Assembly: GCA_964016885.1 (NCBI GenBank)
Contig: OZ024756.1
Span: forward strand, 7,626,001 to 7,690,000
Direction: 5' to 3'
Length of the DNA stretch: 64,000 bases
Source of the DNA: Eledone cirrhosa
Lineage: Eukaryota
Made by a program: the position numbers and the translations under genes
Shown: positions 1-58,431 of the stretch, piece after piece
How the letters are laid out: each line of letters opens with the position of its first letter
How positions within the stretch are numbered: position 1 is the first letter of the stretch
Notes under the pieces: generated by a model
Database searches by the model: none
Told to the model about the DNA's origin: nothing
Seen by the model: the letters and a program-made list of their open reading frames with translations, nothing else

Positions 1-1529
1 ATCTAGCTTCATGGGTTTCTGTAAATCCTTAGACTGTACTCTATCAGCTCACATATAAATATAAAAGCCTACTAGAATAAGTGGAACGGAGTTTACGTTG
101 TCAACGAGTTTTTTCCTGGCGGCAGAGGAGTCAACTAGCGGTGAAAAACGCACATGGCATTAGACAAGGGAGATGACCCCTATATCCGCGAAAACAATTC
201 GAGTGAATGTGGAAATACACATATCGAATTAGAGTGCTCAATAGACATGTTAAAATAAAACAAAAGCTATTCATCACTCAATAGAATCGACAAAAAATGA
301 GCAATAAAATTAACTGGTGGATAGCTATGTCCAGAGCTAAATATATTATCGAAAAATCGGCGCACGAGTTCACGAAAAACGAAATTCGATATGAGCGGCA
401 GAGGGCTCAATAATTCAGATGAATCAGAGCTATAACTATCGTTAAAATACCGTCACATATAGAACAAGTCTACAATCAACCATACGATTTAAAATCGATA
501 AAGGAAGATTCGGGCCAAACAGATAAAAAATATCAATAAAACAATACGTCAATAATTTAAATGAATGTAAAATCATACCCGGACCCACTAGAAAGGTGTT
601 AAATCTAGCTTCATGGGTTTCTGTAAATCCTTAGACTGTACTCTATCAGCTCACATATAAATATAAAAGCCTACTAGAATAAGTGGAACGGAGTTTACGT
701 TGTCAACGAGTTTTTTCCTGGCGGCAGAGGAGTCAACTAGCGGTGAAAAACGCACATGGCATTAGACAAGGGAGATGACCCCTATATCCGCGAAAACAAT
801 TCGAGTGAATGTGGAAATACACATATCGAATTAGAGTGCTCAATAGACATGTTAAAATAAAACAAAAGCTATTCATCACTCAATAGAATCGACAAAAAAT
901 GAGCAATAAAATTAACTGGTGGATAGCTATGTCCAGAGCTAAATATATTAGAAAGATCGAGTATCGAAAAATCGGCGCACGAGTTCACGAAAAACGAAAT
1001 TCGATATGAGCGGCAGAGGGCTCAATAATTCAGATGAATCAGAGCTATAACTATCGTTAAAATACCGTCACATATAGAACAAGTCTACAATCAACCATAC
1101 GATTTAAAATCGATAAAGGAAGATTCGGGCCAAACAGATAAAAAATATCAATAAAACAATACGTCAATAATTTAAATGAATGTAAAATCATACCCGGACC
1201 CACTAGAAAGGTGTTAAATCTAGCTTCATGGGTTTCTGTAAATCCTTAGACTGTACTCTATCAGCTCACATATAAATATAAAAGCCTACTAGAATAAGTG
1301 GAACGGAGTTTACGTTGTCAACGAGTTTTTTCCTGGCGGCAGAGGAGTCAACTAGCGGTGAAAAACGCACATGGCATTAGACAAGGGAGATGACCCCTAT
1401 ATCCGCGAAAACAATTCGAGTGAATGTGGAAATACACATATCGAATTAGAGTGCTCAATAGACATGTTAAAATAAAACAAAAGCTATTCATCACTCAATA
1501 GAATCGACAAAAAATGAGCAATAAAATTA
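1..1529. repeat. Tandem satellite, 602/615-bp unit, ~2.5 copies visible (array runs off the left edge)
   Basis: ATCTAGCTTCATGGG recurs at 1, 603 and 1218. Copies are near-identical except a 13-bp insertion (GAAAGATCGAGTA, 951-963) in copy 2. The third copy stops at ~1529. Confidence 0.95.
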
Positions 1530-1804
1530 TTATCACTAACAACATGATGTTCATCACTGCTACTACTACTATCATAATTATGAAGACCACCTTCAGCAGC
1601 AGCAGCATTTCCCTTAGCAATTGTTATACTTCCTCTGGCTGAAGGGAAATGACTTTCTTTTTACTTCATATCTATATATATACATACACACAGTTGTCCT
1701 CCGGTATTCGCGGGTTACGTTCCTAGAGCACACACGAAGAGTGAGTAACCGCGAATATATTACGTGGTCCATAAAAATACCTATAAACGTCAAGACTACG
1801 TAAA

Positions 1805-2062
1805 AACCGGTAAGGGTGTTGGACTTACGATCATAATGTCGTGGGTTCGATTCCTGGGTTGCGTGTTGTACTCTTGAGCAAAACACTTCATTTCACGTTG
1901 CTTCAGTCCAGTATACGCCGCTGAAAATGAATACCAGTAATAGCCGGGGGTTTAACCTTGTGATGGTCTGGCGTTCTGTATCTTGTACTCTCAGTCGCTT
2001 CACGCCATGAAACCGGGATAAGCACCGGCCAAATGAGTCTTCGGCCTAAGACAGACTTTAGA
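1805..2062 (+). mobile_element. tRNA-derived SINE (group B, CORE-like body)
   Basis: B-box-like GGTTCGATTCC (~1844-1854) followed by TTGAGCAAAACACTTCATTTCACGTTGCT, shared with 22620-22722 and 40785-41100. Confidence 0.7.
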
Positions 2063-3080
2063 CTTATATAAATATATAGATATATATAAATACACAGGAA
2101 AAAGTATGACCCCGACGGCTATTTCTGGATTAAATTAGAATTTTTAGCCTGGTAAATAAATAGCCGAACTTGTTAAGGAGTACTTCCTTATATGGGAAGA
2201 TTGTAGTTGTCAAGGGGATTGGTCAAAATTTGTTGTAAGCACAAATAAGTCTGTCATGGCATTTGGTGGGAGGTTGGGGTGGCTGAACATGCCTGTAGAA
2301 CAATGAGCGAGTGAGTGGAGCCGGTCAAGCGTTGAAAGTGAAATCTATACAGCAGATTCTAAGGATGGTGTTTGAAAAGTCGAAAAATTGTTCTGGAGAA
2401 AATGGAGAAGGGAAGATATAGAATAGGTAAGTCAAATGAAAGTAGGAGACAATAAAAAATGTTAGAAATAAATATAAAGAAAATATATAAAATTAGATGG
2501 TGAGAAATGGAAAAAAAACAGTGGAGTCTATAGACAGTTGCTATTATTAGTAGGTGTTGCTTGTACTGCCAAAGCTATAGAAAAGGTTAATAAGTTGAGA
2601 ATGGAAAATACTAAATAAGAAATTGTAGAAGTGGGTAGGGAAAACATATATTGCAAACTTTTCAGGGGTTTAACACAGCTGCTATAAATAGTTAGTAAAG
2701 CGTATTCCGCCAATGCTATCTTACAATAACAGGTTAATAAGTTGAGAATAGAAAATATTAAATCAGACATTTTGAAATTGTAGAATTGGAGTAGTAACAC
2801 AAATGATACAAATGTACAGGGGTCTAACACATCTGCCATAAATAGTTAGTAAAGCGTATTCGGCCAATTCTATCTTAAAATTACAGGGGTGGGGGTTCTG
2901 AGGCTACCGAGGTCCGATGAGCTGCATCGGATTAGGCAGAAGGGGAAAAACAGACAAGGAAGAAGATCGGGGGTGGAAGAAATTTATAGGATAAGAAATG
3001 GGGAAGTAGCCATATAAAGTCTGTTTTATTGGCTCGTATAAAGCTTCACCGGGTAAAGCTTCACAGGTTGTCGATAAAGG

Positions 3081-3530
3081 GGTGATGGTAGACCTATGAA
3101 ATCTTGCATGTAAAACTTTCAATACTCTTCTTTTTAGTAACTGCATTATTTCTTTCCGGGGACTATGTTGAAAAATAAACCTCATTTGGTCATTCCATGA
3201 GAGTATCTTGGTCAGCCTATGAAGGAGCGATGCTAGCGCTGTGAAATCGTGTACACATTAATTTCAACTCTTCTTATTAATAACTGTATTGTCTCTTTCC
3301 AAGGACCATGTTTAAAAATAAACCTCATTTAGTCATTCCATGAGAGTATCTTGGTCAGCCTATGAAAGATTAATGCTAGAGCTGTGAAATCGTGCATACA
3401 TTAATTTCAGCTCTTCTTATAAATAACTGCATTGTTTCCTTCCTAGGACTAGCTTGAAAAATAAACCTCATTTGGTCATTCCATGAGAGTATCTTAGTCC
3501 GCCTATCAACTTTACAGCCGACTCTCCTAT
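3081..3530. mobile_element. Mariner-type MITE with its internal ~140-bp segment tandemly triplicated
   Basis: Three copies of ...AAAATAAACCTCATTTGGTCATTCCATGAGAGTATCTTGGTCAGCCTAT; same sequence as the MITE at 8991-9191. Confidence 0.7.
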
Positions 3531-3774
3531 ATGTAACAAAAGAGATGTATTTATTCTATAAATCATTTTAGTTTCTTCTCCTTCTCATATTTTTTCTTTT
3601 CGTTCCTTCCATTGTTTTTTACCAATATTCACTACTCCTCCTCAGTAATGTAATTTCTTCTGTCTATTCTTGCAGTCCCTTATTTGTTGTTGTTGTTTTT
3701 GTTTATCAAGTCGTTGCGTTGTCTTGTTTGTGTCACAGATAAATCAATTTGCAGCATTTAATTAACGCCTCTGC

Positions 3775-3870
3775 GTTGCGCGTGCGTGCGTGCGCGTGTG
3801 CATTTGCGTGTGTGTGTGGTTTGTGTGCATTGTATTAAAATGTATGTGTGCGTGTATGTATGCACATATG

Positions 3871-3913
<43 letters not shown>

Positions 3914-4182
3914 GTGTGTGTGTATGTATGCACATATGTATGTATATATATATATGTGTGTGTGTGTCTGCATATATTGTCTGAAAGTGTATATGCGTAT
4001 GTATACATATATGCATGTGTTTTGTGTGTGGTTCCTTGTGCCTGCGTGCGTTGTCTTAAGGTGTATATGTGTGTGTATGCATATATATATATGTGTATGT
4101 GTGTGTGGTTTCTTATGACTATGTGTATTCTCTTAAAGTGTAAATGTGTATATATGTGTGTCTGTGTGTGTGTGCGTGTGTG
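3775..4182. repeat. (TG)n/(TA)n low-complexity microsatellite
   Basis: Directly visible dinucleotide runs. Confidence 0.95.
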
Positions 4183-4503
4183 AAATTAACAGTGTGTGAC
4201 ACTTTCACGATAAATTTCTTGGGGTAAAATTAAAACTTATTTTTGTTTATATATATATTCGGATCTAGCTGTCGAAACGGCCGGAGCTCAGCCGTCGGGG
4301 TCCTGACTCTTTTCCTTATATAAGTTATTCCGGGTTGCCTCGGTGGTAACCACAGTAAGTAAGGTACTCAAAACATAGCAGAGTATAACAGTTTTAATAT
4401 AGATGAGATTCTACAGGACTAGAACTGTTTCATTCGTGAGAAATAATCAGGAAGCTAACTCTGATGATTTCTCACGAATGAAACAGTTCTAGTCCTGTAG
4501 AAG

Positions 4504-4542
<39 letters not shown>

Positions 4543-4671
4543 GGAAAGTTATATTTAAATTGTTGGGTTACAACTAGTAAATATTTATAACTGATATAAA
4601 AGCATTCGACAAATATTTGGAGTATATTTACAATATTAAATAAATGGAAACTATATTTATAAAACCATATT

Positions 4672-4737
4672 TATTTCATTATATATATTTCAGGGATATC
4701 ATATTAACAATATGCTATGCCTTCCTCAGACAAAATA
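4672..4737 (-). ncRNA. Type I hammerhead ribozyme motif
   Basis: Reverse complement of the motif at 4913-4978. Confidence 0.7.
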
Positions 4738-4912
4738 CAATATAAACAGTTTTATAGATAAATAGATTCGACATACCGTAACAACATCGACTTGTATTTG
4801 AAAAGGTTGATTTGTATTTGAAAAGGTTGATCTGCCAAATCAACCTTTTCAAATACAAGTCGATGTTGTTACGGTATGTCGAATCTATTTATCTATAAAA
4901 CTGTTTATATTG

Positions 4913-4978
4913 TATTTTGTCTGAGGAAGGCATAGCATATTGTTAATATGATATCCCTGAAATATATATAATGAAATA
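4913..4978 (+). ncRNA. Type I hammerhead ribozyme motif
   Basis: TATTTTGT-CTGAGGA-[AGG..CATATT/AATATG..CCT stem II]-GAAA-TATATA-TA-ATGAAATA. Stem I pairs, stem III is palindromic, AUA cleavage triplet. Confidence 0.72.
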
Positions 4979-5015
4979 AATATGGTTTTATAAATATAGT
5001 TTCCATTTATTTAAT

Positions 5016-5050
<35 letters not shown>

Positions 5051-5055
<5 letters not shown>

Positions 5056-6150
5056 TAACAGATTAAAGTTTAAGCAAAGAATCGCTGATTTCACCCTTAA
5101 CGGGATCTTCTGAAACTAACAAAGTCAATCTGTAAACGCAGAAGTGAATATTTCAAAAAACGTTGCAACCGGAGGAAGACAGGAAGACGATACTTTGGTT
5201 AGTGGAAACGTTTCCTATGCAAATAAGTAATGGTATAAACATAACATAAACTTAGCTACCACATCAAGACGTAAAATATCCGCGTATAGATCGTACTATC
5301 CGTTAGGGTATAATGTGGGGCTGTAATACAGGAAAGTTTTGTGCAATTTAAGTTTACAAGCCGAAATTGCCTCAGATTTTTTGTTTAAGATGTGGTGTGT
5401 GGCGTAGAGTATTTCCAGGGCCTCAGTGCCGGAGAGGTCACATGATCTTTTATTTCCGTTATACGATCTAGCCCTACCTAGGATCTCCCAGTGTAACTTA
5501 TATTGGGTGTGGTTGTCTTTTAGATTCCAGATATAAGCTGAAAGTGACGTCATATTCCTTCTTAGAGGGTAACAAAAAGAATGGGTATGCATGTAAAGAC
5601 TGCTTGAATCTATTGGCGGTTAACCCTATGTCGGCCATACGGGACGTGTGTGTTTCAACCTTACATATGTAGACAATGTTACTAGAGAGGCATTTCCCGG
5701 ATAAGGGGCAATCAACCCGATTCCTACAATTACAGTTAGTACTAACTACAGGGTTGCACGTGTTCCTACGGCTAGGTAGTTTAGCTAAATTTGAAGCTGT
5801 GGTGTTATGTGCAAGGTTAGGAGTCGTAGAGTAAGAAATTTTAATAGTATTTCTATTAAACATTTTACTATATTTATGTGTAGGGGGGAAATGCTTCGTA
5901 ATAAGGGATAGAAAGATCTTAGCTAATGGTGTGGCCACCTCCATATTATATGGTGGGTTATACCATATAATGCGTCGGGGTCTATTTCTTGTAGGTCTAT
6001 TCTCATACTCTGTATATGCTACCTTATCGAAAAATCCACTCCGAGCAAGAGATTCATTGTAATATGTGGAATGGTCGTTGAAAATATGCTCGTTAGTAGA
6101 TAGACGGGAAAGCCTCAACGAAACGTTTCTTACCAGGTTCTTATATATTT
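5051..6150 (-). mobile_element. 5'-truncated Penelope-like retroelement: RT thumb, linker and GIY-YIG endonuclease, frameshifted
   Basis: ORFs 5498-6118 and 5296-5592 carry WYNPPY, FNRNTIKISYS, CNCRNRVDCPLSGKC, NIVY...IGLT..FKQ, LSAYIWNLK and LNKKSE, and align by eye with the elements at 43-44 kb and 45-47 kb. Flanked by (TA)n. Confidence 0.88.
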
Positions 6151-11355: not shown

Positions 11356-11412
<57 letters not shown>

Positions 11413-11418
<6 letters not shown>

Positions 11419-11797
11419 TATATGATAAACACTTACGTGTTTTTGTTGCAATTGACAATAAAATAGCTAGAATGAAATATCTTAATTCAAATACATATAG
11501 TCTGCCTGTGTCGATCTAAAAAATAATAAATCAATACTCACAAACACATATGGGCAAAAGGCCACGTAGGTACCAAGGCCTTTTGCCCATATGTGTTTGT
11601 GAGTATTGATTTATTATTTTTTAGATCGACACAGGCAGACTATATGTATTTGAATTAAGATATTTCATTCTAGCTATTTTATTGTCAATTGCAACAAATA
11701 CACGTAAGTGTTTATCAGATATTAATTTATACTGCTCAGAAGTGATTCTTAGAGCTAAAATAATTGTAAATTACCCCATTGAGTGTAAACTCTAAGT

Positions 11798-12055: not shown

Positions 12056-12160
12056 GTAGACAAGATATCGTTTTCAGTTTCTCTAGTTCAGAGTTATGCT
12101 AGAAATAAATCCTACTGTATGGATTATCTATGTTAAACTATATATATACATATATACAAG

Positions 12161-12595
12161 TATATTAAATAAATGGAAACTATATTTATAAAACCATATT
12201 TATTCTATTATATATATTTCAAGGGTACCAAAACTTTGGTCCACTCTCATCAGATAAAATACAAAGTGTGTTTTATAAATATTTGACATAACCAAGAAAA
12301 TACCTCAACGGTTGAAGTCTATCCAGGAAAAACTTGAAACATTAAGGTATTTTCTTGGTTATGTCAAAATTTATAAAACACACTTTGTATTTTACTGATG
12401 AGAGCGGACCAAAGATTTGGTACCCTTGAAATATATATAATAGAATAAATATGGTTTTGTAAATATAGTTTCCATTTATTTAATATCATTGAATATTTGA
12501 ATATTATACTCCAGAAAACTGTCGAGTGCTCTGAATCAGTTATAAACATTTATATTTGTTGAATTACCAACAAATTGAATATCCCTTCTGCTTAT
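12161..12595. mobile_element. Palindromic mini-element with paired hammerheads (minus 12201-12261, plus 12388-12447)
   Basis: Arms ~12161-12320 and ~12332-12486. CTGATGA-GAGCGGACCAAAGATTTGGTACCCTT-GAAA-TATATA-TA-ATAGAATA. Confidence 0.82.
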
Positions 12596-12773
12596 ATATA
12601 TATATATATATATATAGTGAGAGAGGCGGGGTGCATTGTTAAATGTAACTGATGAATAATAAATAATGATTAATTAATATTTAAAATAATGGAAATAGAA
12701 GTAAGTATCGAAATATGGGCTGGAAATATCCATACATAGATAGATAAAGAGAGAGAGATGTATATATATATAT

Positions 12774-12820
<47 letters not shown>

Positions 12821-13800
12821 TATTTCTTTTATTTGCCACTAGGGCATCAAAAGTGGGACAAGTACAAAGGGGGGAGTTTACATAAAAAGGCGTCCTCAAT
12901 AAGGAGGAGGCAATAACAAAATATAAAAATAAAATAAGATATAACAAAAAATAAAATTTTTAACAAAATCCTCAATAGAGAGGAGGCGCCTTGGGGGGTC
13001 GCACACACCCCCGAAAAAAGTGTGCAACCCTTCTCCTCAGGAGCACAGAGAAGGGGTGCTCCCTTGGTCTTTCATCTTCCTCACCTATAGTCTGATGTAG
13101 AGTGAAGGCCCATTCACACGGGCCATTCTCGCCACTTTCACCCATCTTTCATAGAAACGGCTGGGGTGCAGCACCTCTCTCTCCATCCTGATCCTTCTTC
13201 CAAAATGATATCGGAAGAAACGGACCAGTTGTTGGCCAGAGAGAAAGGTGCCCGACCTCAGTCCTTTCAGACGCGTCCACCATACAACCTCTTTCGCCAT
13301 GGCTATTACGCACAGAAACACCGCCTCTGCTTCATCTTTGAAGGGGGGAGGCGGCTTGATCATTACAATAGACTCGGTGGTCAACCGGATCGGTCCCACC
13401 CTTGACAGCAGTTGTTCGACATAGCCCCACAGATCGGCTACGCCCGAGCAGTGTACTAATGCGTGTGCAACGGTTTCCTCGTCGCACACGCATCTGGGAC
13501 AGATCTTTTTGGCGGGGTCCCTACCCGGGCGCCCGTGTCTGTAGAGCCTTTCTCGAACGGGTAAAGCCCCTCGGTAGCACTGCCAGGCCAGGGACTTCTG
13601 GAAGTTGTCCATAGGTCCCGGGCTGAATGTCCTACCGAACAGGCTGGCCAGTTCGTCCTCCTCCATGTCTAGGGCTTCTCCGAGAGCGTCGTCGCACCTG
13701 CTGCGTACCAGCCCTCTATAGAATGTTGCGGTGGAGTCTCCACTGATAACCGGATCCGCCTGCCAGAGGGCGGTGAGCGCCTGGGCACACTCAGTGTGCC
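12821..13800 (-). mobile_element. L1/Tx1-like LINE 3' fragment, copy 1 (ORF2 C-terminal zinc-binding region plus 3'UTR)
   Basis: Open frame 13800->13085: W..YRGALPVRERL...CPRCVCDEETVAHALVHC...W, a zf-RVT-like CxxC...HxxxxC motif. 3' end abuts (TCTA)n. Confidence 0.85.
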
Positions 13801-13850
13801 TAGATAGATAGATAGATAGATAGATTGATAGATATATATATAGATAGATA

Positions 13851-14770
13851 TGTTTCTTTATTAGCCACAGGGGCACAAAAGAAGGGGACAAATACAAAGG
13901 CGGAAGTTTACATACAATAAAAACGTGTAAAATATTATCACAAATGCAATTTAAAAATTCGTCGATTTTCCCCAATAGGGGGAGACATTACATATGGGTA
14001 ACACTACCCCCGAAAAAAATGTGCAACCCTCATCTCCAGGAGTGCGAAGAGTTTGTACCCCTTTCTTCTCCTCCTCTTTCTTCTGAACTTACTGGCTGAT
14101 ATAGAAGGAAGGCCCAGTCACTCGGGCCATTCTCGCCACTTTCACCCACCTTTCATAAAACTTGCTGGGGTACAGCACCTCTCTTTCCATCCTGATTCTT
14201 CTTCCAAAGTGGTATTTGAAAAAAGAATCAGTTGTTACCCGGAGAGAAAGGTGTCTGACCTCAGCCCTCTCAACCTTGTCCACCATACAACCTCTTTCTC
14301 CATAGCTCGTTTTTGAAGGAGTGTGGCGGTTTGATCATGACAATGGATTCGTTGGTCAACCGGATTGGTCCCACCCGCCACAATAGTCCTTCTACATAGC
14401 CCCACAGGTCGGTAACGCCCGGGCAATGTATGAATCCGTGCGCGACCGTTTCTTCGTCTCGCACGCACCTCGGACAGATCTCTTTTGCAGGGTCTCTTCC
14501 CGGGCGCCCATGTCTGTAGAGCTTGTCTCGAACTGGTAGAGCACCTCGGTAGCACTGCGTGGCTAGGGACTTTTGGAAGATGTCCATCGGTCCCGGGCGG
14601 AAGGTCCTACCGAACAGACTGGCCAGTTCGTCTTCCTCTACGCCTAGAGTTTCACCGAGCGCGTTGTCGCACTTGCTGCGGATCAACCCTCTATAGAATG
14701 ACGAAGTGGAGTCTCCACTGATCGCCGGCTCCGCCTGCCAGAGGGCTGTGAGCGCGTGAGCACATTCGAT
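13851..14770 (-). mobile_element. L1/Tx1-like LINE 3' fragment, copy 2
   Basis: CYRGALPVRDKLYRHG...CPRCVRDEETVAHGFIHC; small deletion/frameshift near 14310; AATAAA then (TCTA)n. Confidence 0.85.
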
Positions 14771-14800
<30 letters not shown>

Positions 14801-14801
<1 letters not shown>

Positions 14802-15688
14802 TTCGTTATTATCCACAAGGGCGCACAAGAAAAGGGGTCGAAACAAAGACACATGCCGGGGATTTTACATACAATCGTGTAAAAAATATTGAAACAAACA
14901 AATTTAACAATCGAAATCCCCAATAAGGGGGAGGCGCCACAAATAGGCTGTTTAATACCCTGTCGATAGAACAACCCTCAACTTCAGGAGCGTGTTGTGC
15001 ATGTGCACCTTTCTTCCTTTTGCTCTTTTCTTCACTCGGGCCGTTTTTGTCACATTCACTCAGCTTTCAGCAAATTTACTGGGGTGCTGTGCCTCTCTCT
15101 CCACTCTGATTCTCCTTCTAAAGTGGTACCTAAAGAAGGGAATGAGTTGTTCTCCGGTGAGAAAGGGATCTGTCCTCAGTCCTGTCAATCTCGTCCACCA
15201 TATAACCTCTTTCACCATAGCCACTATACAGAGGAAAACCGCCTCTCTTTCCTTTTCGAAAGAAGTTGGCGGTTTGATCCTTACTATGGACTTGGCAGTC
15301 AACTGGAGTTGTCCCATACGTGACAGCAGTTGTTCTGTGTAGTTTCACAGGTCAGTTACGCCCGGGCAGTGTACAATTGAGTGCAAGATGGTTTCATTGT
15401 CCTGCCTGGATCTTGGACACGTCCTCTTGGAAGGATACCGGCTGAGGCGTCCGTGCCTGTAGATCGTGTCATAAACTGGTAGACTCCTCGGTAGCACTGC
15501 TAGGCCAGGGACCTCTGGAAGTTGTCCATAGGTCCCGGGCGGAAAGTCCAACCAAACAGACTGGTGAGTTCGTCGTCTTCGACGCCAATAGTCTCTCCGA
15601 GCACTTCGTCGCCCTCGTGATGTACTAACCCTCTATAGAATGTCGAAGTGGATTGCTGTGCCCGCTTGTCAGAGGACTTTGAGCGCCT
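14801..15688 (-). mobile_element. L1/Tx1-like LINE 3' fragment, copy 3 (frameshifted)
   Basis: PGPMDNFQRSLA, ETILHSIVHCPGVTDL and EAVFLCIVAMVKEVIWWTRL spread over several frames. Confidence 0.82.
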
Positions 15689-15747
<59 letters not shown>

Positions 15748-15760
15748 TAGATAGATAGAT

Positions 15761-16033
15761 TTCTGTATTTGCCACAAGGGTGCACAAGAAAAGGGGACAA
15801 AACAAAGACACATGCCGAGGATTTTACATACAGTCGTGTAAAAATATTGAAACAAACAATTATAACAATCGAAATCCCAATAGGGAGGTGGCGCACAAAT
15901 GGGTTGTTAAGTCCCTTTCAGTAAATTTACTGGGGTGCAGTACCTCTCGCTCCACTCTGATTCTCCTTCTAAATTGATATCTAAAGAATGGAATCAATTG
16001 TTGTCCGGAGAGAAAGGCATGTCCTCAGTCCTC
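15761..16033 (-). mobile_element. L1/Tx1-like LINE 3' fragment, copy 4 (short, internally deleted)
   Basis: 3'UTR matches 14801-14945; 15915-16033 matches 15067-15183. Confidence 0.75.
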
Positions 16034-16036
16034 TCA

Positions 16037-16147
<111 letters not shown>

Positions 16148-27939: not shown

Positions 27940-28170
27940 TAGACCCCTTTCGGTCTCAAATTACCAAGGGATTTGTACCTAGAAAGTTCCCCTCCGAGAT
28001 ACAAGTCCAGGCAAGGTCGTTTGTGGAAGACCAGCAAAGCCCATGTATACCAGTCTCCCCTCTCCACGACACTGATGTTGTCAAAGGGAAAGGTAATGGC
28101 CGGTACAGCTAGGCACCAGTGACATCACAACTCATTTCTACAGCTGAGTAAACTGGAGCAACGTGAAATA
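27940..28170 (-). mobile_element. SINE group B 3' region, continuous with the 45-bp array
   Basis: Reverse complement aligns by eye with 40890-41095 (CTAGAAAGTT, ACAAGTCCAG, GGCAC(C/T)AGTGAC, CAACTC). Confidence 0.75.
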
Positions 28171-31100
28171 AAGAGTCTTGCTCAAGGACACAGTAAACTA
28201 AAGCAACGGGAAATAAAGTGTCTTGCTCAAGGACACAATAAACTGGAGCAACGTGAAATAAAGTGTCTTGCTCAAGGATACAGTAGACTGGAGCAACGTG
28301 AAATAAAGTGTCTTGCTCAAGGACACAGTGGACTGGAGCAACGTGAAATAAAGTGTCTTGCTCAAGGACACAGTGGACTGGAGCAACGGGAAATATAGTG
28401 TCTTGCTCAAGGGCACAGTAAACTGGAGCAACGTGAAATAAAGTGTCTTGCTCAAGGACACAGTGGACTGGAGCAACGGGAAATAAAGTGTCTTGCTCAA
28501 GGACACAGTAGACTGGAACAACGTGAAATAAAGTGTCTTGCTGAAGGACACAGTGGACTGGAGCAACGGGAAATAAAGTGTCTTGCTCAAGGACACAGTG
28601 GATTGGAGCAACGTGAAATAAAGAGTCTTGCTCAAGGACACAGTGGATTGGAGCAAGGTGAAATAAAGTGTCTTGCTCAAGGACACAGTAGACTGGAGCA
28701 ACGTGAAATAAAGTGTCTTGTTCAAGGACACAGTGGACTGGAGCAACGGGAAATAAAGTGTCTTGTTCAAGGACACAGTGGACTGGAACAACGTGAAATA
28801 AAGTGTCTTGCTGAAGGACACAGTGGACTGGAGCAACGGGAAATAAAGTGTCTTGCTCAAGGACACAGTGGATTGGAGCAACGTGAAATAAAGTGTCTTG
28901 CTCAAGGACACAGTAGACTGGAACAACGTGAAATAAAGTGTCTTGCTAAAGGACACAGTGGACTGGAGCAACGTGAAATAAAGTGTCTTGCTCAAGGACA
29001 CAGTGGACTGGAACAACGTGAAATAAAGAGTCTTGCTCAAGGACACAGTGGATTGGAGCAAGGTGAAATAAAGTGTCTTGCTCAAGGACACAGTAGACTG
29101 GAGCAACGTGAAATAAAGTGTCTTGTTCAAGGACACAGTGGACTGGAGCAACGGGAAATAAAGTGTCTTGTTCAAGGGCACAGTGGACTGGAGCAACGGG
29201 AAATAAAGAGTCTTGCTCAAGGACACAGTGGACTGGAACAACGTGAAATAAAGAGTCTTGCTCAAGGACACAGTGGACTGGAGCAACGGGAAATAAAGAG
29301 TCTTGCTCAAGGACACAGTGGATTGGAGCAAGGTGAAATAAAGTGTCTTGCTCAAGGACACAGTAGACTGGAGCAACGTGAAATAAAGTGTCTTGTTCAA
29401 GGACACAGTGGACTGGAGCAACGGGAAATAAAGTGTCTTGTTCAAGGACACAGTGGACTGGAACAACGTGAAATAAAGTGTCTTGCTGAAGGACACAGTG
29501 GACTGGAGCAACGGGAAATAAAGTGTCTTGCTCAAGGACACAGTGGATTGGAGCAACGTGAAATAAAGTGTCTTGCTCAAGGACACAGGAGACTGGAACA
29601 ACGTGAAATAAAGTGTCTTGCTAAAGGACACAGTGGACTGGAGCAACGTGAAATAAAGTGTCTTGCTCAAGGACACAGTGGACTGGAACAACGTGAAATA
29701 AAGAGTCTTGCTCAAGGACACAGTGGATTGGAGCAAGGTGAAATAAAGTGTCTTGCTCAAGGACACAGTAGACTGGAGCAACGTGAAATAAAGTGTCTTG
29801 TTCAAGGACACAGTGGACTGGAGCAACGGGAAATAAAGTGTCTTGTTCAAGGGCACAGTGGACTGGAGCAACGGGAAATAAAGAGTCTTGCTCAAGGACA
29901 CAGTGGACTGGAACAACGTGAAATAAAGAGTCTTGCTCAAGGACACAGTGGACTGGAGCAACGGGAAATAAAGAGTCTTGCTCAAGGACACAGTGGATTG
30001 GAGCAAGGTGAAATAAAGTGTCTTGCTCAAGGACACAGTAGACTGGAGCAACGTGAAATAAAGTGTCTTGTTCAAGGACACAGTGGACTGGAGCAACGGG
30101 AAATAAAGTGTCTTGTTCAAGGACACAGTGGACTGGAACAACGTGAAATAAAGTGTCTTGCTGAAGGACACAGTGGACTGGAGCAACGGGAAATAAAGTG
30201 TCTTGCTCAAGGACACAGTGGATTGGAGCAACGTGAAATAAAGTGTCTTGCTCAAGGACACAGTAGACTGGAACAACGTGAAATAAAGTGTCTTGCTAAA
30301 GGACACAGTGGACTGGAGCAACGTGAAATAAAGTGTCTTGCTCAAGGACACAGTGGACTGGAACAACGTGAAATAAAGAGTCTTGCTCAAGGACACAGTG
30401 GATTGGAGCAAGGTGAAATAAAGTGTCTTGCTCAAGGACACAGTAGACTGGAGCAACGTGAAATAAAGTGTCTTGTTCAAGGACACAGTGGACTGGAGCA
30501 ACGGGAAATAAAGTGTCTTGTTCAAGGGCACAGTGGACTGGAGCAACGGGAAATAAAGAGTCTTGCTCAAGGACACAGTGGACTGGAACAACGTGAAATA
30601 AAGAGTCTTGCTCAAGGACACAGTGGACTGGAGCAACGGGAAATAAAGAGTCTTGCTCAAGGACACAGTGGATTGGAGCAACGTGAAATAAAGTGTCTTG
30701 CACAAGGACACAGTAGACTGGATCAACGTGAAATAAAGAGTCTTGCTCAAGGACACAGTGGACTGGAGCAACGTGAAATAAAGTGTCTTGCACAAGGACA
30801 CAGTAGACTGGATCAACGTGAAATAAAGAGTCTTGCTCAAGGACACAGTGGACTGGAACAACGTGAAATAAAGAGTCTTGCACAAGGACACAGTGGACTG
30901 GAACAACGTGAAATAAAGTGTCTTGCTCAAGGACACAGTGGACTTGAGCAAGGTGAAATAAAGTGTCTTGCTCAAGGACACAGTGGACTGGAGCAACGTG
31001 AAATAAAGTGTCTTGCTCAAGGACACAGTGGACTGGAGCAACGGGAAATAAAGTGTCTTGCTCAAGGACACAGTAGACTGGAACAACGTGAAATAAAGTG

Positions 31101-34100
31101 TCTTGCTGAAGGACACAGTGGATTGGAGCAAGGTGAAATAAAGTGTCTTGCTCAAGGACACAGTAGACTGGAGCAACGGGAAATAAAGTGTCTTGTTCAA
31201 GGACACAGTGGACTGGAGCAACGGGAAATAAAGTGTCTTGTTCAAGGACACAGTGGACTGGAGCAACGGGAAATAAAGAGTCTTGCTCAAGGACACAGTG
31301 GACTGGAACAACGTGAAATAAAGAGTCTTGCTCAAGGACACAGTGGACTGGAGCAACGGAAAATAAAGAGTCTTGCTCAAGGACACAGTGGACTGGAGCA
31401 ACGGGAAATAAAGTGTCTTGTTCAAGGACACAGTGGACTGGAGCAACGGGAAATAAAGAGTCTTGCTCAAGGACACAGTGGACTGGAACAACGTGAAATA
31501 AAGAGTCTTGCTCAAGGACACAGTGGACTGGAGCAACGTGAAATAAAGTGTCTTGCACAAGGACACAGTGGACTGGAGCAACGTGAAATAAAGAGTCTTG
31601 CTCAAGGACACAGTGGACTGGAGCAACGTGAAATAAAGTGTCTTGCACAAGGACACAGTGGACTGGAACAACGTGAAATAAAGAGTCTAGCTCAAGGACA
31701 CAGTGGACTGGAACAACGTGAAATAAAGAGTCTTGCTCAAGGACACAGTGGACTGGAACAACGTGAAATAAAGTGTGTTGCACAAGGACACAGTGGACTG
31801 GAGCAACGTGAAATAAAGTCTTGCTCAAGGACACAGTGGACTGGAGCAACGTGAAATAAAGTGTCTTGCACAAGGACACAGTGGACTGGAACAACGTGAA
31901 ATAAAGAGTCTTGCTCAAGGACACAGTGGACTGGAACAACGTGAAATAAAGTGTCTTGCTCAAGGACACAGTGGACTGGAACAACGTGAAATAAAGTATC
32001 TTGCACAAGGACACAGTGGACTGGAGCAACGTGAAATAAAGAGTCTTGCACAAGGACACAGTGGACTGGAGCAACGTGAAATAAAGAGTCTTGCTCAAGG
32101 ACACAGTGGACTGGAGCAACGGGAAATAAAGAGTCTTGCTCAAGGACACAGTGGACTGGAGCAACGTGAAATAAAGTGTCTTGCTCAAGGACACAGTAGA
32201 CTGGAGCAACGTGAAATAAAGTGTCTTGTTCAAGGACACAGTGGACTGGAGCAACGGGAAATAAAGTGTCTTGTTCAAGGGCACAGTGGACTGGAGCAAC
32301 GGGAAATAAAGAGTCTTGCTCAAGGACACAGTGGACTGGAACAACGTGAAATAAAGAGTCTTGCTCAAGGACACAGTGGACTGGAGCAACGGGAAATAAA
32401 GAGTCTTGCTCAAGGACACAGTGGATTGGAGCAAGGTGAAATAAAGTGTCTTGCTCAAGGACACAGTAGACTGGAGCAACGTGAAATAAAGTGTCTTGTT
32501 CAAGGACACAGTGGACTGGAGCAACGGGAAATAAAGTGTCTTGTTCAAGGACACAGTGGACTGGAACAACGTGAAATAAAGTGTCTTGCTGAAGGACACA
32601 GTGGACTGGAGCAACGGGAAATAAAGTGTCTTGCTCAAGGACACAGTGGATTGGAGCAACGTGAAATAAAGTGTCTTGCTCAAGGACACAGTAGACTGGA
32701 ACAACGTGAAATAAAGTGTCTTGCTAAAGGACACAGTGGACTGGAGCAACGTGAAATAAAGTGTCTTGCTCAAGGACACAGTGGACTGGAACAACGTGAA
32801 ATAAAGAGTCTTGCTCAAGGACACAGTGGATTGGAGCAAGGTGAAATAAAGTGTCTTGCTCAAGGACACAGTAGACTGGAGCAACGTGAAATAAAGTGTC
32901 TTGTTCAAGGACACAGTGGACTGGAGCAACGGGAAATAAAGTGTCTTGTTCAAGGGCACAGTGGACTGGAGCAACGGGAAATAAAGAGTCTTGCTCAAGG
33001 ACACAGTGGACTGGAACAACGTGAAATAAAGAGTCTTGCACAAGGACACAGTGGACTGGAACAACGTGAAATAAAGTGTCTTGCTCAAGGACACAGTGGA
33101 CTTGAGCAAGGTGAAATAAAGTGTCTTGCTCAAGGACACAGTGGACTGGAGCAACGTGAAATAAAGAGTCTTGCTCAAGGACACAGTGGACTGGAGCAAC
33201 GTGAAATAAAGTGTCTTGCTCAAGGACACAGTGGACTGGAGCAACGGGAAATAAAGTGTCTTGCTCAAGGACACAGTAGACTGGAACAACGTGAAATAAA
33301 GTGTCTTGCTGAAGGACACAGTGGACTGGAGCAACGTGAAATAAAGTGTCTGGCTCAAGGACACAGTGGACTGGAACAACGTGAAATAAAGAGTCTTGCA
33401 CAAGGACACAGTGGACTGGAACAACGTGAAATAAAGTGTCTTGCTCAAGGACACAGTGGACTTGAGCAACGTGAAATAAAGTGTCTTGCACAAGGACACA
33501 GTGGACTGGAGCAACGTGAAATAAAGAGTCTTGCTCAAGGACACAGTGGACTGGAGCAACGTGAAATAAAGTGTCTTGCTCAAGGACACAGTGGACTGGA
33601 GCAACGGGAAATAAAGTGTCTTGCTCAAGGACACAGTAGACTGGAACAACGTGAAATAAAGTGTCTTGCTGAAGGACACAGTGGATTGGAGCAAGGTGAA
33701 ATAAAGTGTCTTGCTCAAGGACACAGTAGACTGGAGCAACGGGAAATAAAGTGTCTTGTTCAAGGACACAGTGGACTGGAGCAACGGGAAATAAAGTGTC
33801 TTGTTCAAGGACACAGTGGACTGGAGCAACGGGAAATAAAGAGTCTTGCTCAAGGACACAGTGGACTGGAACAACGTGAAATAAAGAGTCTTGCTCAAGG
33901 ACACAGTGGACTGGAGCAACGGAAAATAAAGAGTCTTGCTCAAGGACACAGTGGACTGGAGCAACGGGAAATAAAGTGTCTTGTTCAAGGACACAGTGGA
34001 CTGGAGCAACGGGAAATAAAGAGTCTTGCTCAAGGACACAGTGGACTGGAACAACGTGAAATAAAGAGTCTTGCTCAAGGACACAGTGGACTGGAGCAAC

Positions 34101-37100
34101 GTGAAATAAAGTGTCTTGCACAAGGACACAGTGGACTGGAGCAACGTGAAATAAAGAGTCTTGCTCAAGGACACAGTGGACTGGAGCAACGTGAAATAAA
34201 GTGTCTTGCACAAGGACACAGTGGACTGGAACAACGTGAAATAAAGAGTCTAGCTCAAGGACACAGTGGACTGGAACAACGTGAAATAAAGAGTCTTGCT
34301 CAAGGACACAGTGGACTGGAACAACGTGAAATAAAGTGTGTTGCACAAGGACACAGTGGACTGGAGCAACGTGAAATAAAGAGTCTTGCTCAAGGACACA
34401 GTGGACTGGAGCAACGTGAAATAAAGTGTCTTGCACAAGGACACAGTGGACTGGAACAACGTGAAATAAAGAGTCTAGCTCAAGGACACAGTGGACTGGA
34501 GCAACGTGAAATAAAGAGTCTTGCTCAAGGACACAGTGGACTGGAACAACGTGAAATAAAGAGTCTTGCTCAAGGACACAGTGGACTGGAGCAACGTGAA
34601 ATAAAGTGTCTTGCACAAGGACACAGTGGACTGGAACAACGTGAAATAAAGAGTCTTGCTCAAGGACACAGTGGACTGGAGCAACGTGAAATAAAGTGTC
34701 TTGCACAAGGACACAGTGGACTGGAGCAACGGGAAATAAAGTGTCTTGCTCAAGGACACAGTAGACTGGAACAACGTGAAATAAAGTGTCTTGCTGAAGG
34801 ACACAGTGGATTGGAGCAAGGTGAAATAAAGTGTCTTGCTCAAGGACACAGTAGACTGGAGCAACGGGAAATAAAGTGTCTTGTTCAAGGACACAGTGGA
34901 CTGGAGCAACGGGAAATAAAGTGTCTTGTTCAAGGACACAGTGGACTGGAGCAACGGGAAATAAAGAGTCTTGCTCAAGGACACAGTGGACTGGAACAAC
35001 GTGAAATAAAGAGTCTTGCTCAAGGACACAGTGGACTGGAGCAACGGAAAATAAAGAGTCTTGCTCAAGGACACAGTGGACTGGAGCAACGGGAAATAAA
35101 GTGTCTTGTTCAAGGACACAGTGGACTGGAGCAACGGGAAATAAAGAGTCTTGCTCAAGGACACAGTGGACTGGAACAACGTGAAATAAAGAGTCTTGCT
35201 CAAGGACACAGTGGACTGGAGCAACGTGAAATAAAGTGTCTTGCACAAGGACACAGTGGACTGGAGCAACGTGAAATAAAGAGTCTTGCTCAAGGACACA
35301 GTGGACTGGAGCAACGTGAAATAAAGTGTCTTGCACAAGGACACAGTGGACTGGAACAACGTGAAATAAAGAGTCTAGCTCAAGGACACAGTGGACTGGA
35401 ACAACGTGAAATAAAGAGTCTTGCTCAAGGACACAGTGGACTGGAACAACGTGAAATAAAGTGTGTTGCACAAGGACACAGTGGACTGGAGCAACGTGAA
35501 ATAAAGAGTCTTGCTCAAGGACACAGTGGACTGGAGCAACGTGAAATAAAGTGTCTTGCACAAGGACACAGTGGACTGGAACAACGTGAAATAAAGAGTC
35601 TAGCTCAAGGACACAGTGGACTGGAGCAACGTGAAATAAAGAGTCTTGCTCAAGGACACAGTGGACTGGAACAACGTGAAATAAAGAGTCTTGCTCAAGG
35701 ACACAGTGGACTGGAGCAACGTGAAATAAAGTGTCTTGCACAAGGACACAGTGGACTGGAACAACGTGAAATAAAGAGTCTTGCTCAAGGACACAGTGGA
35801 CTGGAGCAACGTGAAATAAAGTGTCTTGCACAAGGACACAGTGGACTGGAACAACGTGAAATAAAGAGTCTAGCTCAAGGACACAGTGGACTGGAACAAC
35901 GTGAAATAAAGAGTCTTGCTCAAGGACACAGTGGACTGGAACAACGTGAAATAAAGTGTGTTGCACAAGGACACAGTGGACTGGAGCAACGTGAAATAAA
36001 GAGTCTTGCTCAAGGACACAGTGGACTGGAGCAACGTGAAATAAAGTGTCTTGCACAAGGACACAGTGGACTGGAACAACGTGAAATAAAGAGTCTTGCT
36101 CAAGGACACAGTGGACTGGAACAACGTGAAATAAAGTGTCTTGCTCAAGGACACAGTGGACTGGAACAACGTGAAATAAAGTATCTTGCACAAGGACACA
36201 GTGGACTGGAGCAACGTGAAATAAAGAGTCTTGCACAAGGACACAGTGGACTGGAGCAACGTGAAATAAAGAGTCTTGCTCAAGGACACAGTGGACTGGA
36301 GCAACGGGAAATAAAGAGTCTTGCTCAAGGACACAGTGGACTGGAGCAACGTGAAATAAAGAGTCTTGCACAAGGACACAGTGGACTGGAGCAACGTGAA
36401 ATAAAGAGTCTTGCACAAGGACACAGTGGACTGGAGCAACGTGAAATAAAGAGTCTTGCTCAAGGACACAGTGGACTTGAGCAAGGTGAAATAAAGTGTC
36501 TTGCTCAAGGACACAGTGGACTGGAACAACGTGAAATAAAGTGTCTTGCTCAAGGACACAGTGGACTGGAACAACGTGAAATAAAGAGTCTTGCTCAAGG
36601 ACACAGTGGACTGGAGCAACGTGAAATAAAGTGTTTTTCACAAGGACACATTAGACTGGAGCAACGTGAAATAAAGAGTCTTGCTCAAGGACACAGTGGA
36701 CTGGAGCAACGTGAAATAAAGTGTCTTGCTCAAGGACACAGTGGACTGGAGCAACGTGAAATAAAGTGTCTTGCTCAAGGACACAGTGGACTGGAACAAC
36801 GTGAAATAAAGTGTCTTACTCAAGGACACAGTGGACTGGAGCAACGTGAAATAAAGAGTCTTGCTCAAGGACACAGTGGACTGGAGCAACGGGAAATAAA
36901 GAGTCTTGCTCAAGGACACAGTGGACTGGAACAACGTGAAATAAAGAGTCTTGCTCAAGGACACAGTGGACTGGAGCAACGGGAAATAAAGAGTCTTGCT
37001 CAAGGACACAGTGGACTGGAGCAACGGGAAATAAAGAGTCTTGCTCAAGGACACAGTGGACTGGAACAACGTGAAATAAAGAGTCTTGCTCAAGGACACA

Positions 37101-38717
37101 GTGGACTGGAGCAACGGGAAATAAAGAGTCTTGCTCAAGGACACAGTGGACTGGAGCAACGTGAAATAAAGAGTCTTGCACAAGGACACAGTAGACTGGA
37201 GCAACGGGAAATAAAGAGTCTTGCTCAAGGACACAGTGGACTGGAACAACGTGAAATAAAGTGTCTTGCTCAAGGACACAGTGGACTGGAACAACGTGAA
37301 ATAAAGAGTCTTGTTCAAGGACACAGTGGACTGGAGCAACGGGAAATAAAGAGTCTTGCTCTAGGACACAGTGGACTGGAGCAACGTGAAATAAAGAGTC
37401 TTGCACAAGGACACAGTAGACTGGAGCAACGGGAAATAAAGAGTCTTGCTCAAGGACACAGTGGACTGGAACAACGTGAAATAAAGAGTCTTGCTCAAGG
37501 ACACAGTGACTGGAACAACGTGAAATAAAGAGTCTTGCTCAAGGACACAGTGGACTGGAACAACGTGAAATAAAGTGTCTTGCACAAGGACACAGTGGAC
37601 TGGAACAACGTGAAATAAAGTGTCTTGCTCAAGGACACAGTGACTGGAACAACGTGAAATAAAGAGTCTTGCTCAAGGACACAGTGGACTGGAACAACGT
37701 GAAATAAAGTGTCTTGCACAAGGACACAGTGGACTGGAACAACGTGAAATAAAGAGTCTTGCTCAAGGACACAGTGACTTGAACAACGTGAAATAAAGAG
37801 TCTTGCTCAAGGACACAGTGGACTGGAACAACGTGAAATAAAGTGTCTTGCACAAGGACACAGTGGACTGGAACAACGTGAAATAAAGACTCTTGCTCAA
37901 GGACACAGTGGACTGGAGCAACGTGAAATAAAGTGTCTTGCACAAGGACACAGTGGACTGGAACAACGTGAAATAAAGAGTCTTGCTCAAGGACACAGTG
38001 GACTGGAACAACGTGAAATAAAGAGTCTTGCTCAAGGACACAGTGGACTGGAACAACGTGAAATAAAGTATCTTGCACAAGGACACAGTGGACTGGAGCA
38101 ACGTGAAATAAAGAGTCTTGCACAAGGACACAGTGGACTGGAGCAACGTGAAATAAAGAGTCTTGCTCAAGGACACAGTGGACTGGAGCAACGTGAAATA
38201 AAGTGTCTTGCACAAGGACACAGTGGACTGGAACAACGTGAAATAAAGAGTCTTGCTCAAGGACACACTGGACTGGAACAACGTGAAATAAAGAGTCTTG
38301 CTCAAGGACACAGTGGACTGGAACAACGTGAAATAAAGTATCTTGCACAAGGACACAGTGGACTGGAGCAACGTGAAATAAAGAGTCTTGCACAAGGACA
38401 CAGTGGACTGGAGCAACGTGAAATAAAGTGTCTTGCTCAAGGACACAGTGGACTGGAGCAACGGGAAATAAAGAGTTTTGCTCAAGGACACAGTGGACTG
38501 GAGCAACGTGAAATAAAGAGTCTTGCTCAAGGACACAGTGGACTGGAGCAACGTGAAATAAAGAGTCTTGCACAAGGACACAGTGGACTGGAGCAACGTG
38601 AAATAAAGTGTCTTGCTCAAGGACACAGTGGACTGGAACAACGTGAAATAAAGAGTCTTGCACAAGGACACAGTGGACTGGAGCAAGGTGAAATAAAGTG
38701 TCTTGCTCAAGGACACA
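28149..38717. repeat. 45-bp satellite, ~235 copies
   Basis: Unit GGACACAGTGGACTGGAGCAACGTGAAATAAAGTGTCTTGCTCAA with point variants and rare 1-2 bp deletions (~31817, ~37508, ~37642, ~37776). Confidence 0.98.
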
Positions 38718-38995: not shown

Positions 38996-39180
38996 TAATT
39001 GTTTCTACTTTAGGCACAAGGCCAGCAATTACCCAGTGCATTACTGGTACTTTATTTTATCGACACCGTAAGGATGAAAGGTAAAGTCAACCTCGGCGGG
39101 ATTTGAACTCAGATCGTAAAGGGACGTAATTATGCTGGAAAGCACGGCGTCCGACCCTCTACCGATACTGCCAATCCACC
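38996..39180 (-). mobile_element. SINE group A, full length
   Basis: Near-identical reverse complement of 9440-9630. Confidence 0.92.
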
Positions 39181-39738
39181 CTACCGATACTGCCAATCCA
39201 CCCTACCGATACTGCCAATCCACCCCTACCGATACTGCCAATCCACCCTACCGATACTGCCAATCCACCCTACCGATACTGCCAATCCACCCCTACCGAT
39301 ACTGCCAATCCACCCCTACCGATACTGCCAATCCACCCTACCGATACTGCCAATCCACCCTACCGATACTGCCAATCCACCCCTACCGATACTGCCAATC
39401 CACCCTACCGATACTGCCAATCCACCCCTACCGATACTGCCAATCCAGCCTACCGATACTGCCAATCCACCCTACCGATACTGCCAATCCACCCTACCGA
39501 TACTGCCAATCCACCCTACCGATACTGCCAATCCACCCTACCGATACTGCCAATCCACCCCTACCGATACTGCCAATCCACCCTACCGATACTGCCAATC
39601 CACCCTACCGATACTGCCAATCCACCCTACCGATACTGCCAATCCACCCCTACCGATACTGCCAATCCACCCTACCGATACTGCCAATCCACCCTACCGA
39701 TACTGCCAATCCACCCTACCGATACTGCCAATCCACCC
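39159..39738. repeat. 22-23-bp minisatellite (~26 copies) made of the SINE A 5' end
   Basis: Unit CTACCGATACTGCCAATCCACC(C) is the reverse complement of the first 22 nt of SINE A. Confidence 0.95.
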
Positions 39739-58060: not shown

Positions 58061-58431
58061 CGCTTGCACATGATGTTAGACCAGGCAAGGGAAACCCTTT
58101 TCGAGAAGCGGGCCGCATGTGATATGGCTCATCATCAGTCGGGCTGCAAGCGCTAATCTACACCCGTGCCCATATTAAAGAGAAGGGTGGTAATTCAGGC
58201 TGCTTTGATTTGTTTCTTCAGAATTCGTACACGCTGTTTTCCTCGATCGTAAAAAAGATATAAAGATAAATTACGACTGAAAAGTTGTGGTAAAAAAAAT
58301 CAGGAGGATCTCACTTAGGTGACTAATGCGAGCCATTCAGAAAGCTTCACGGACCGCAGGTTACCCCTGACTGTATTAGACACAGGTTTTTTGTAGTTTT
58401 GTTGACAGACTTCGTTGTTGGTATTGTTGGT

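What the first reader, a model, noticed from the sequence alone, without database searches (positions are those of the whole stretch)
12776..16033. Stack of four diverged Tx1-like LINE ends separated by (GATA)n, three starting at almost the same codon
Seen: copies 1-3 begin (minus strand) at HTECAQAL, IECAHAL and (Q)ALKVL, within ~20 nt of each other, each directly after the (TCTA)n that ends the upstream copy; there is no poly(A). Many copy 1/copy 2 differences are synonymous (e.g. CAG/CAA, CCT/CCG, ACA/ACC, AGC/AGT, GAG/GAA), which points to different active source lineages rather than local duplication. Established: several Tx1-clade LINEs are sequence-specific, some for microsatellites, and 5' truncation is normally random. 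Inference: either a (GATA)n-targeting element with a fixed RT stop or short transcript, or an element that inserts at a specific site in older copies of itself.
Basis: partly seen in the sequence, partly recalled or inferred. Interest (0 to 1): 0.7.

Follow-up and report, generated by a model that had tools for sequence, protein, structure and literature searches.

The report
GATA-targeting LINE with truncation hotspot
Four shortened copies of a jumping gene piled up here because this family keeps inserting into GATA repeats; its copies break off at all lengths, but several times too often at one predicted RNA hairpin, which likely marks where the RNA being copied ends.

Summary
The stack is real. 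It holds four head-to-tail 3' ends of a 5.7-kb APE-RT LINE (Tx1-like, probably octopod) from three lineages (dN/dS 0.16-0.33), not a local duplication. The family inserts at TATCT-type sites, mostly (TATC)n, with target duplications of about 8-25 bp. The target survives on both sides, so copies pile up: 37 of 79 young copies have an adjacent relative.

There is no fixed stop and no self-insertion: 5' ends spread over the whole element. There is, however, a real truncation hotspot in the 5' arm of a conserved GC-rich predicted hairpin in ORF2. Genome-wide, 39 minus-strand junctions fall there against 1-15 in five control windows, and two copy samples agree (p 5e-4 and 8e-7). It takes about 5% of young copies and is only about 2-fold in older lineages. 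Two similarly stable hairpins are not hotspots.

Copies 1 and 2 start in this hairpin, copy 3 in its 3' arm. Three starts within 20 nt remain largely a coincidence (about 1 in 600 stacks). The mechanism is inferred. The scan noted the GATA target before on other DNA; I found no note or paper on the hotspot.

The parts
12761..12822 (-). (TATC)n tract, 3' flank and target of copy 1
12823..13800 (-). Copy 1: 5'-truncated member of the young lineage s1 (reference 4748-5725); intact last 237 codons of ORF2 plus 3' UTR
   Evidence: 99.4% to the intact copy L034; 150 of 150 scored genomic matches 100% identical in protein
13427..13597 (-). zf-RVT zinc-binding domain in the ORF2 remnant of copy 1
   Evidence: Pfam PF13966, E 4e-6, above the curated cut-off
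13774..13800 (-). Remnant of the ORF2 hairpin (upper stem, loop, 3' arm); copy 1 begins inside its 5' arm
13801..13852 (-). (TATC)n tract between copies 2 and 1
13853..14770 (-). Copy 2: lineage s2, older; starts at the hairpin loop (reference 4752-4753); small deletions
   Evidence: nearest other copies 93-95%; alignments
14771..14800 (-). (TATC)n tract between copies 3 and 2
14801..15688 (-). Copy 3: lineage s3, decayed (stops, deletions); starts in the 3' arm of the hairpin (reference 4766-4767)
   Evidence: 91% to L229; dN/dS 0.79-1.16 against three copies of its own lineage
15689..15759 (-). (TATC)n tract between copies 4 and 3
15760..16039 (-). Copy 4: short lineage s3 end (from about reference 5276) with an internal deletion
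16041..16101 (.). (TA)n tract on the 5' side of copy 4

Best explanation
The stack is four 5'-truncated copies from three lineages of a (TATC)n-targeting APE-RT LINE, likely inserted one after another, and the shared start lies at a genome-wide truncation hotspot in the 5' arm of a predicted ORF2 hairpin, which likely arises because part of the template RNA pool begins at the base of that hairpin. Shown: copies end at TATCT-type sites with duplications of about 8-25 bp, and no tail is seen at non-repeat sites. Inferred: the endonuclease nicks there and primes without poly(A); the target persists on both sides, so later copies land head-to-tail. Shown: 5' ends spread over the whole element, with an excess at reference 4736-4748. 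Inferred: RNA that was cut or chewed from its 5' side stops 1-3 nt before the GC-rich stem; the RT copies to, or to within about 10 nt of, that end; and the cDNA is joined with little microhomology. Copies 1 and 2 fit the hotspot or its edge. Copy 3 and the triple coincidence are mostly chance. Confidence is about 0.9 for the shown parts and about 0.45 for the RNA-end step.
For: Element and target: ORF1 of 595 codons and an ORF2 frame of 1153 codons with APE, RT and zf-RVT. Flank consensus YATATCTATC over 126 flanks: 65 with three or more TATC, 23 with two, 12 (TA)n, 26 other. Duplications called in 32 of 45 copies whose flanks are not pure repeat. 37 of 79 young copies have a same-strand relative within 400 nt, 23 upstream and 24 downstream. 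Hotspot: repeat-plus-anchor patterns give 39 minus-strand loci at the hairpin against 15, 5, 6, 1 and 1 in controls (anchor retention 0.96 against 0.95, 0.89, 0.98, 0.98 and 0.51). Of 49 distinct loci in the 100 listed rows, 44 start at 4736-4747 and none at 4726-4735 (my hand count). Sample found by the C-terminal 60 residues: 6 of 69 junctions in 26 of 1800 nt, p 5e-4. Second sample on contigs C2 and C3: 7 of 33 in 20 of 1250 nt, p 8e-7, with two junctions shared with the first sample. Old lineages: 34 against 19 loci, p 0.03. The hairpin folds in five lineages, z -2.3 to -5.5; 89.9% of cells are paired and 2 of 16 pairs change on both sides. Microhomology of 2 nt or more: 3 of 17 hairpin junctions, 27 of 75 others, 0 of 9 full-length ends; no inverted snap-back seen in the 17. 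Precedent: a GC-rich stable 5' structure appears to protect R2 template RNA and gives slightly truncated junctions (PMC11331408, passages).
Against: Hairpins of similar predicted stability at 4231 and 5053 hold only 5 and 3 loci (the second anchor is kept in only half of the copies). So stem stability alone does not explain the site, and an extra cut or a bound protein must be assumed. About half of the hotspot junctions lie 4-9 nt inside the stem, not at its base. The microhomology difference (3 of 17 against 27 of 75) is too small to carry weight. Covariation rests on 12 related rows, where codon constraints also keep the pairs; the count of doubly changed pairs is not above shuffles (230 of 500). 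The excess is only about 2-fold in the lineages of copies 2 and 3 (one control window; 4 of 65 junctions). The hotspot hardly raises the chance of the triple start (0.147% to 0.173%).
Confidence: 0.5

Rival explanations
1. Same stack and hotspot, but made on the DNA side: after the RT has copied the 3' arm, loop and 5' arm, the new cDNA folds back on itself and leaves the template at the A-run next to the stem (terminator-like), or a longer cDNA is trimmed back to the cDNA hairpin before joining.
For: Junctions fill the 5' arm and not the 3' arm or the stem's 3' side (44 of 49; 10 loci), which excludes a simple roadblock and fits fold-back. The cDNA hairpin is the second most stable of the element (-15.5 kcal/mol) and is followed by four T. 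A shoulder of junctions lies just upstream (24 loci). cDNA snap-back is a known junction class for R2 (PMC11371274, passages).
Against: No inverted snap-back extension in 17 hairpin junctions, although the 30-nt pattern gap would miss long ones. The most stable cDNA hairpin (4230) is not a hotspot.
Confidence: 0.33
2. The hotspot is only a sequence preference at the junction (CT microhomology with the TATCT target, then GG, like the element's natural 5' end); the hairpin is incidental.
For: Many hotspot junctions start at the two CTGG sites of the 5' arm. In the old-lineage control window with two CTGG sites, most of 34 loci start near them. Full-length copies also begin with CTGGG.
Against: Only 1 of 52 other young-lineage junctions lies at the 16 other CTGG sites between 3500 and 5400. 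The CTGG sites at 4713 and 4782 hold about 6-7 loci each. Microhomology is not higher at the hairpin.
Confidence: 0.1
3. One reading: a fixed RT stop or a short transcript makes most copies start here.
For: Three of four copies in the window start within 19 nt.
Against: Breakpoints run from 1 to 5617; more than a third of 150 matches keep the whole ORF2 frame; the old lineages are spread as well.
Confidence: 0.02
4. One reading: the element inserts at one site inside older copies of itself; or the stack is a local tandem duplication.
For: Head-to-tail order and similar starts. One true tandem duplicate of a hotspot copy exists elsewhere (L174).
Against: Duplications at hotspot junctions are flank sequence starting TATCT. 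No 5' half was found in the window. Each copy is closer to dispersed relatives (99, 94, 91%) than to its neighbours (68-78%), and dN/dS is 0.16-0.33.
Confidence: 0.01

Closest known systems
Kibi (TC)n and Koshi (TTC)n of teleosts; crocodilian Tx1 families on (TTCC)n/(TTTC)n (PMC4494074: passages and section 15 read)
   Same: APE-RT LINE of the L1 group that inserts into a microsatellite; it passes that paper's rule of more than 20% of flanks (88 of 126).
   Different: The target is (TATC)n/(GATA)n, with (TA)n and TATCT-bearing minisatellites also used; the host is probably an octopod. I could not place it against named Kibi or Koshi sequences.
L1-Tx1 families of Octopus vulgaris (PMC13282606: passages and Table 1 seen)
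   Same: Recently active L1-Tx1 LINEs are listed for an octopus (13 families, 421 insertions).
   Different: The passages I saw give no target and no truncation profile. The supplements and library were not examined and may hold this family.
5' junction classes of R2/PRINT insertions (PMC11371274 and PMC11331408: passages read)
   Same: Join, anneal and snap-back junctions; stable 5' RNA structure is linked to protection from decay and to slight truncation.
   Different: Those are engineered templates and the structure is at the true 5' end. Here the structure is internal, in coding sequence, and the signal is in natural genomic copies.
Structure-linked truncation of snRNA retrocopies (PMC4476161: passages read)
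   Same: Retrocopy end points cluster according to RNA secondary structure.
   Different: Those are 3' truncations (sites of priming) in single-stranded loops; here they are 5' truncations in a stem arm.

Membership tests
L1-group non-LTR retrotransposon | ORF2 with N-terminal APE endonuclease, RT and C-terminal zinc-binding domain | tested here: met
   Pfam Exo_endo_phos, RVT_1 and zf-RVT; best solved relative is human L1 ORF2p, E 2e-47 over residues 8-857, against 3e-19 for R2
L1-group non-LTR retrotransposon | Upstream ORF1 with a nucleic-acid-binding motif | tested here: met
   595-codon ORF1 with a CCHC knuckle seen in the sequence; the Pfam zf-CCHC match is weak, E 0.05
L1-group non-LTR retrotransposon | Fixed 3' end, variable 5' truncation, target-site duplication | tested here: met
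Tx1 clade | RT groups with named Tx1 elements (Tx1L, Keno, Kibi, Koshi) in a tree | tested here: inconclusive
   No named Tx1 reference was returned. The RT groups with Argonauta hians (67%) inside an animal clade with turtle and fish elements (36-42%), apart from plant L1 (21 rows picked from the hits).
Tx1 clade | Target-sequence preference with an APE-type endonuclease | tested here: met
   88 of 126 flanks with two or more TATC units; TAT at flank positions 3-5 in at least 123 of 126 at each position
Kibi/Koshi microsatellite-targeting Tx1 families | Target (TC)n, (TTC)n, (TTCC)n or (TTTC)n | tested here: not met
   The target is TATCT/(TATC)n
Self-cleaving ribozyme-defined 5' end | Single-nucleotide 5' end and a known ribozyme fold | tested here: not met
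   Hotspot junctions spread over about 12-20 nt; no Rfam match near its gathering score in the element (5 weak hits)
Non-autonomous, fixed-length LINE derivative | Many copies sharing one exact 5' end and private mutations | tested here: not met
   Hotspot copies have at least ten different starts and different flanks

The most novel reading that the evidence does not exclude
These LINEs keep, under selection and across at least five lineages, a stem-loop inside ORF2 that is a specific RNA processing or protein-binding site and sets a preferred 5' end for new copies. It would be a natural, countable read-out of how RNA structure decides where a LINE insertion is cut short, in an ORF2 RNA that is unusually rich in strong hairpins.
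Probability: 0.3. Interest if true: 0.62.

Novelty: new variant of a known kind. Interest (0 to 1): 0.4.

Why it matters
Why most LINE insertions are 5'-truncated is still argued between RT fall-off, template decay and host repair (review PMC13708176, passages). A young, high-copy family with one sharp, structure-linked hotspot and similarly stable hairpins without one makes that question testable from genome data and in a simple assay. The (TATC)n target extends the known list for microsatellite-targeting Tx1-like LINEs and explains head-to-tail stacks in this genome. The effect is modest (about 5% of young copies), and the striking triple start in this window is mostly coincidence, which limits the score.

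Tried and rejected
1) Fixed stop, short transcript, self-insertion and local duplication: rejected.
2) 'Any strong hairpin truncates': rejected; hairpins at 4231 and 5053 are not hotspots.
3) RT roadblock at the 3' base of the stem: rejected; 10 loci there.
4) CTGG microhomology alone: unlikely.
5) Age polarity of stacks: the youngest copy is 3'-most here, but neighbours are 23 upstream and 24 downstream in 79 loci.
6) Expression: no RNA holder listed. Contigs of four runs gave no usable pile-up of ends.
7) Rfam: nothing near threshold. Protein atlas: only generic APE-RT clusters. Cluster look-up named 1 of 7 clusters.
8) Literature: eight searches returned no paper describing a (GATA)n-targeting Tx1 or an internal hairpin truncation hotspot. 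I saw listings and read passages of nine papers. Kojima and Fujiwara 2004, McIntyre 2026 and Repbase were not read and may bear on this. PMC5381506, PMC4640811 and PMC10294476 (passages) added only background.
9) Dropped rows: loci selected by the hairpin pattern (L081-L110) and by the 237-residue query (L001-L030) were left out of the first sample unless found again independently; the window's own copy was left out of the p-value; L256 gave no call; six second-sample loci ran off the fetched edge; L283 and L279 likewise.

Full report
Observation. The region holds four minus-strand LINE 3' ends, head-to-tail, at 15760-16039, 14801-15688, 13853-14770 and 12823-13800, separated by (TATC)n tracts; copy 4 has (TA)n on its 5' side. 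Copies 1-3 begin at positions 4748, 4752-4753 and 4766-4767 of an intact genomic copy used as reference (L034:2479-8203, 5725 bp).

The element. Copy 1 belongs to a young, abundant family: all 150 scored matches to its 237-residue frame were 100% identical, and it is 99.4% identical to the reference. The full element has a 595-codon ORF1 with a zinc knuckle and an ORF2 frame of 1153 codons with APE endonuclease, RT and zf-RVT. Its closest solved relative is human L1 ORF2p. The closest named protein is from Argonauta hians, 67% over the RT, so an octopod host is inferred. A 21-row RT tree puts it among animal elements with turtle and fish relatives and apart from plant L1. No named Tx1 sequence was available, so Tx1 membership is likely but untested.

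Three lineages, independent insertions. Copy 2 has nearest relatives at 93-95%. Copies 3 and 4 belong to a third, older lineage. dN/dS is 0.16, 0.31 and 0.33 between copies 1, 2 and 3, and 0.79-1.16 between copy 3 and three members of its own lineage, as expected for decay after insertion. Each copy is closer to dispersed relatives than to its neighbours, which rules out local duplication.

Target. Over 126 distinct 3' flanks of young copies the consensus is YATATCTATC. 65 begin with three or more TATC units, 23 with two, 12 with (TA)n and 26 with other sequence. Among 45 copies whose flanks are not pure repeat, a duplication was called in 32, mostly 8-25 bp and mostly starting at TAT directly after the element's end, with no tail at non-repeat sites. 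The repeat is therefore target, not tail. Because it is duplicated, it stays available on both sides: 37 of 79 young copies have a same-strand relative within 400 nt. This explains the stack without self-targeting, and no 5' half of the element was found in the window. This is the known behaviour of microsatellite-targeting Tx1 families with a target I did not find described (PMC4494074). Earlier scan notes reported the same target on other DNA of this genome; I reached it independently before that look-up.

No fixed start. 116 young-lineage junctions run from position 1 to 5617. The older lineages are also spread, and skewed to short copies.

A real hotspot. The shared start lies on a predicted 16-bp GC-rich hairpin at reference 4739-4774 (about -33 kcal/mol, z -4.1). 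Patterns of repeat, up to 30 bases, then an element anchor count junctions genome-wide, and minus-strand rows count each locus once. The hairpin window gave 39; the adjacent windows gave 15 and 5, and a window 300 nt downstream gave 6, with similar anchor retention. By hand count, 44 of the 49 distinct loci listed start at 4736-4747 and none at 4726-4735. Two copy samples chosen without regard to this pattern agree: 6 of 69, p 5e-4, and 7 of 33, p 8e-7. The second sample could only include copies starting at or before 4750 and shares two junctions with the first. The hotspot takes about 5% of young copies. In the two older lineages the excess is about two-fold against one control window (34 against 19), and 4 of 65 in neighbours. 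Hotspot copies carry ordinary target duplications right at the junction, so the ends were made at insertion.

The hairpin. It folds in five lineages. 89.9% of cells pair and two of 16 pairs change on both sides, but the rows are related and coding, so this is suggestive only. ORF2 has five hairpins at or below -24 kcal/mol against 0-1 in each of 30 synonymous shuffles. Against a simple reading: two of the other strong hairpins hold only 5 and 3 junction loci. CTGG microhomology is not enough either (1 of 52 junctions at 16 other sites).

Mechanism (inferred). Junctions sit in the 5' arm, not before the 3' arm, so the RT is not simply blocked by the stem. I favour a template whose 5' end lies at the stem base. 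The edge is sharp 1-3 nt before the stem, which fits my recollection that 5'-3' exonucleases need a short unpaired overhang (recalled, no call). Microhomology is low, as at full-length ends, and no snap-back was seen in 17 junctions. R2 work links stable 5' structure to RNA protection and slight truncation (PMC11331408). cDNA fold-back or trimming is a close rival. Neither model explains why other hairpins are silent, so a site-specific cut or bound protein is needed. There were no RNA data to decide.

The triple start. Simulation from the observed breakpoints gives about 0.15-0.17% per four-copy stack with or without the hotspot. The hotspot explains why such a coincidence would fall here, but copy 3 lies in the 3' arm, where junction density is at background. 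The triple is best read as a picked coincidence on top of a real but modest bias.

Verdict. A new variant of a known kind: known biology for the stack, a target not found in my eight searches, and a quantifiable structure-linked truncation hotspot that I found neither in those searches nor in the scan's notes. Interest 0.4.

Noticed in passing
L034:4504-7938 (ORF2): ORF2 RNA has five local hairpins at or below -24 kcal/mol per 40 nt against 0-1 in each of 30 synonymous shuffles; those at reference 4233, 4581 and 4737 persist in all three lineages and 4101 in the two that could be scored.
   Followed up: partly
L034:4477-4506: The ORF1 stop is followed in the same frame by the ORF2 frame, with the first ATG eight codons later. 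Earlier scan notes discuss this junction.
   Followed up: no
L174 (G000:C1:194753757-194761757): Two adjacent hotspot copies with the same 5' junction, a true local tandem duplication, unlike the window's stack.
   Followed up: partly
L032, L037, L038, L044, L131, L132: Insertions into different minisatellites whose units contain a TATCT-like motif, some hit twice, showing that the target is a short motif rather than the microsatellite as such.
   Followed up: partly
reference 4659-4714 (samples): A shoulder of extra junctions 20-80 nt upstream of the hairpin; unexplained.
   Followed up: partly
window 11409-11731 and 12144-12504: Two long inverted repeats (155-nt arms, 98%, 13-nt spacer; 115-nt arms, 91%), MITE- or foldback-like.
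   Followed up: no
window 28152-38717, 39154-39738, 49621-54437, 58431-61818: Long tandem arrays with units of 45, 22, 29 and 60 bp; the first two look, from memory, like expanded pieces of a cephalopod SINE (not tested).
   Followed up: no
L146:6188-6256, L234:2584-2652, L115:2618-2686: More distant sister families (about 47-73% protein identity in this region) sit in the same loci and keep the hairpin with different residues.
   Followed up: partly
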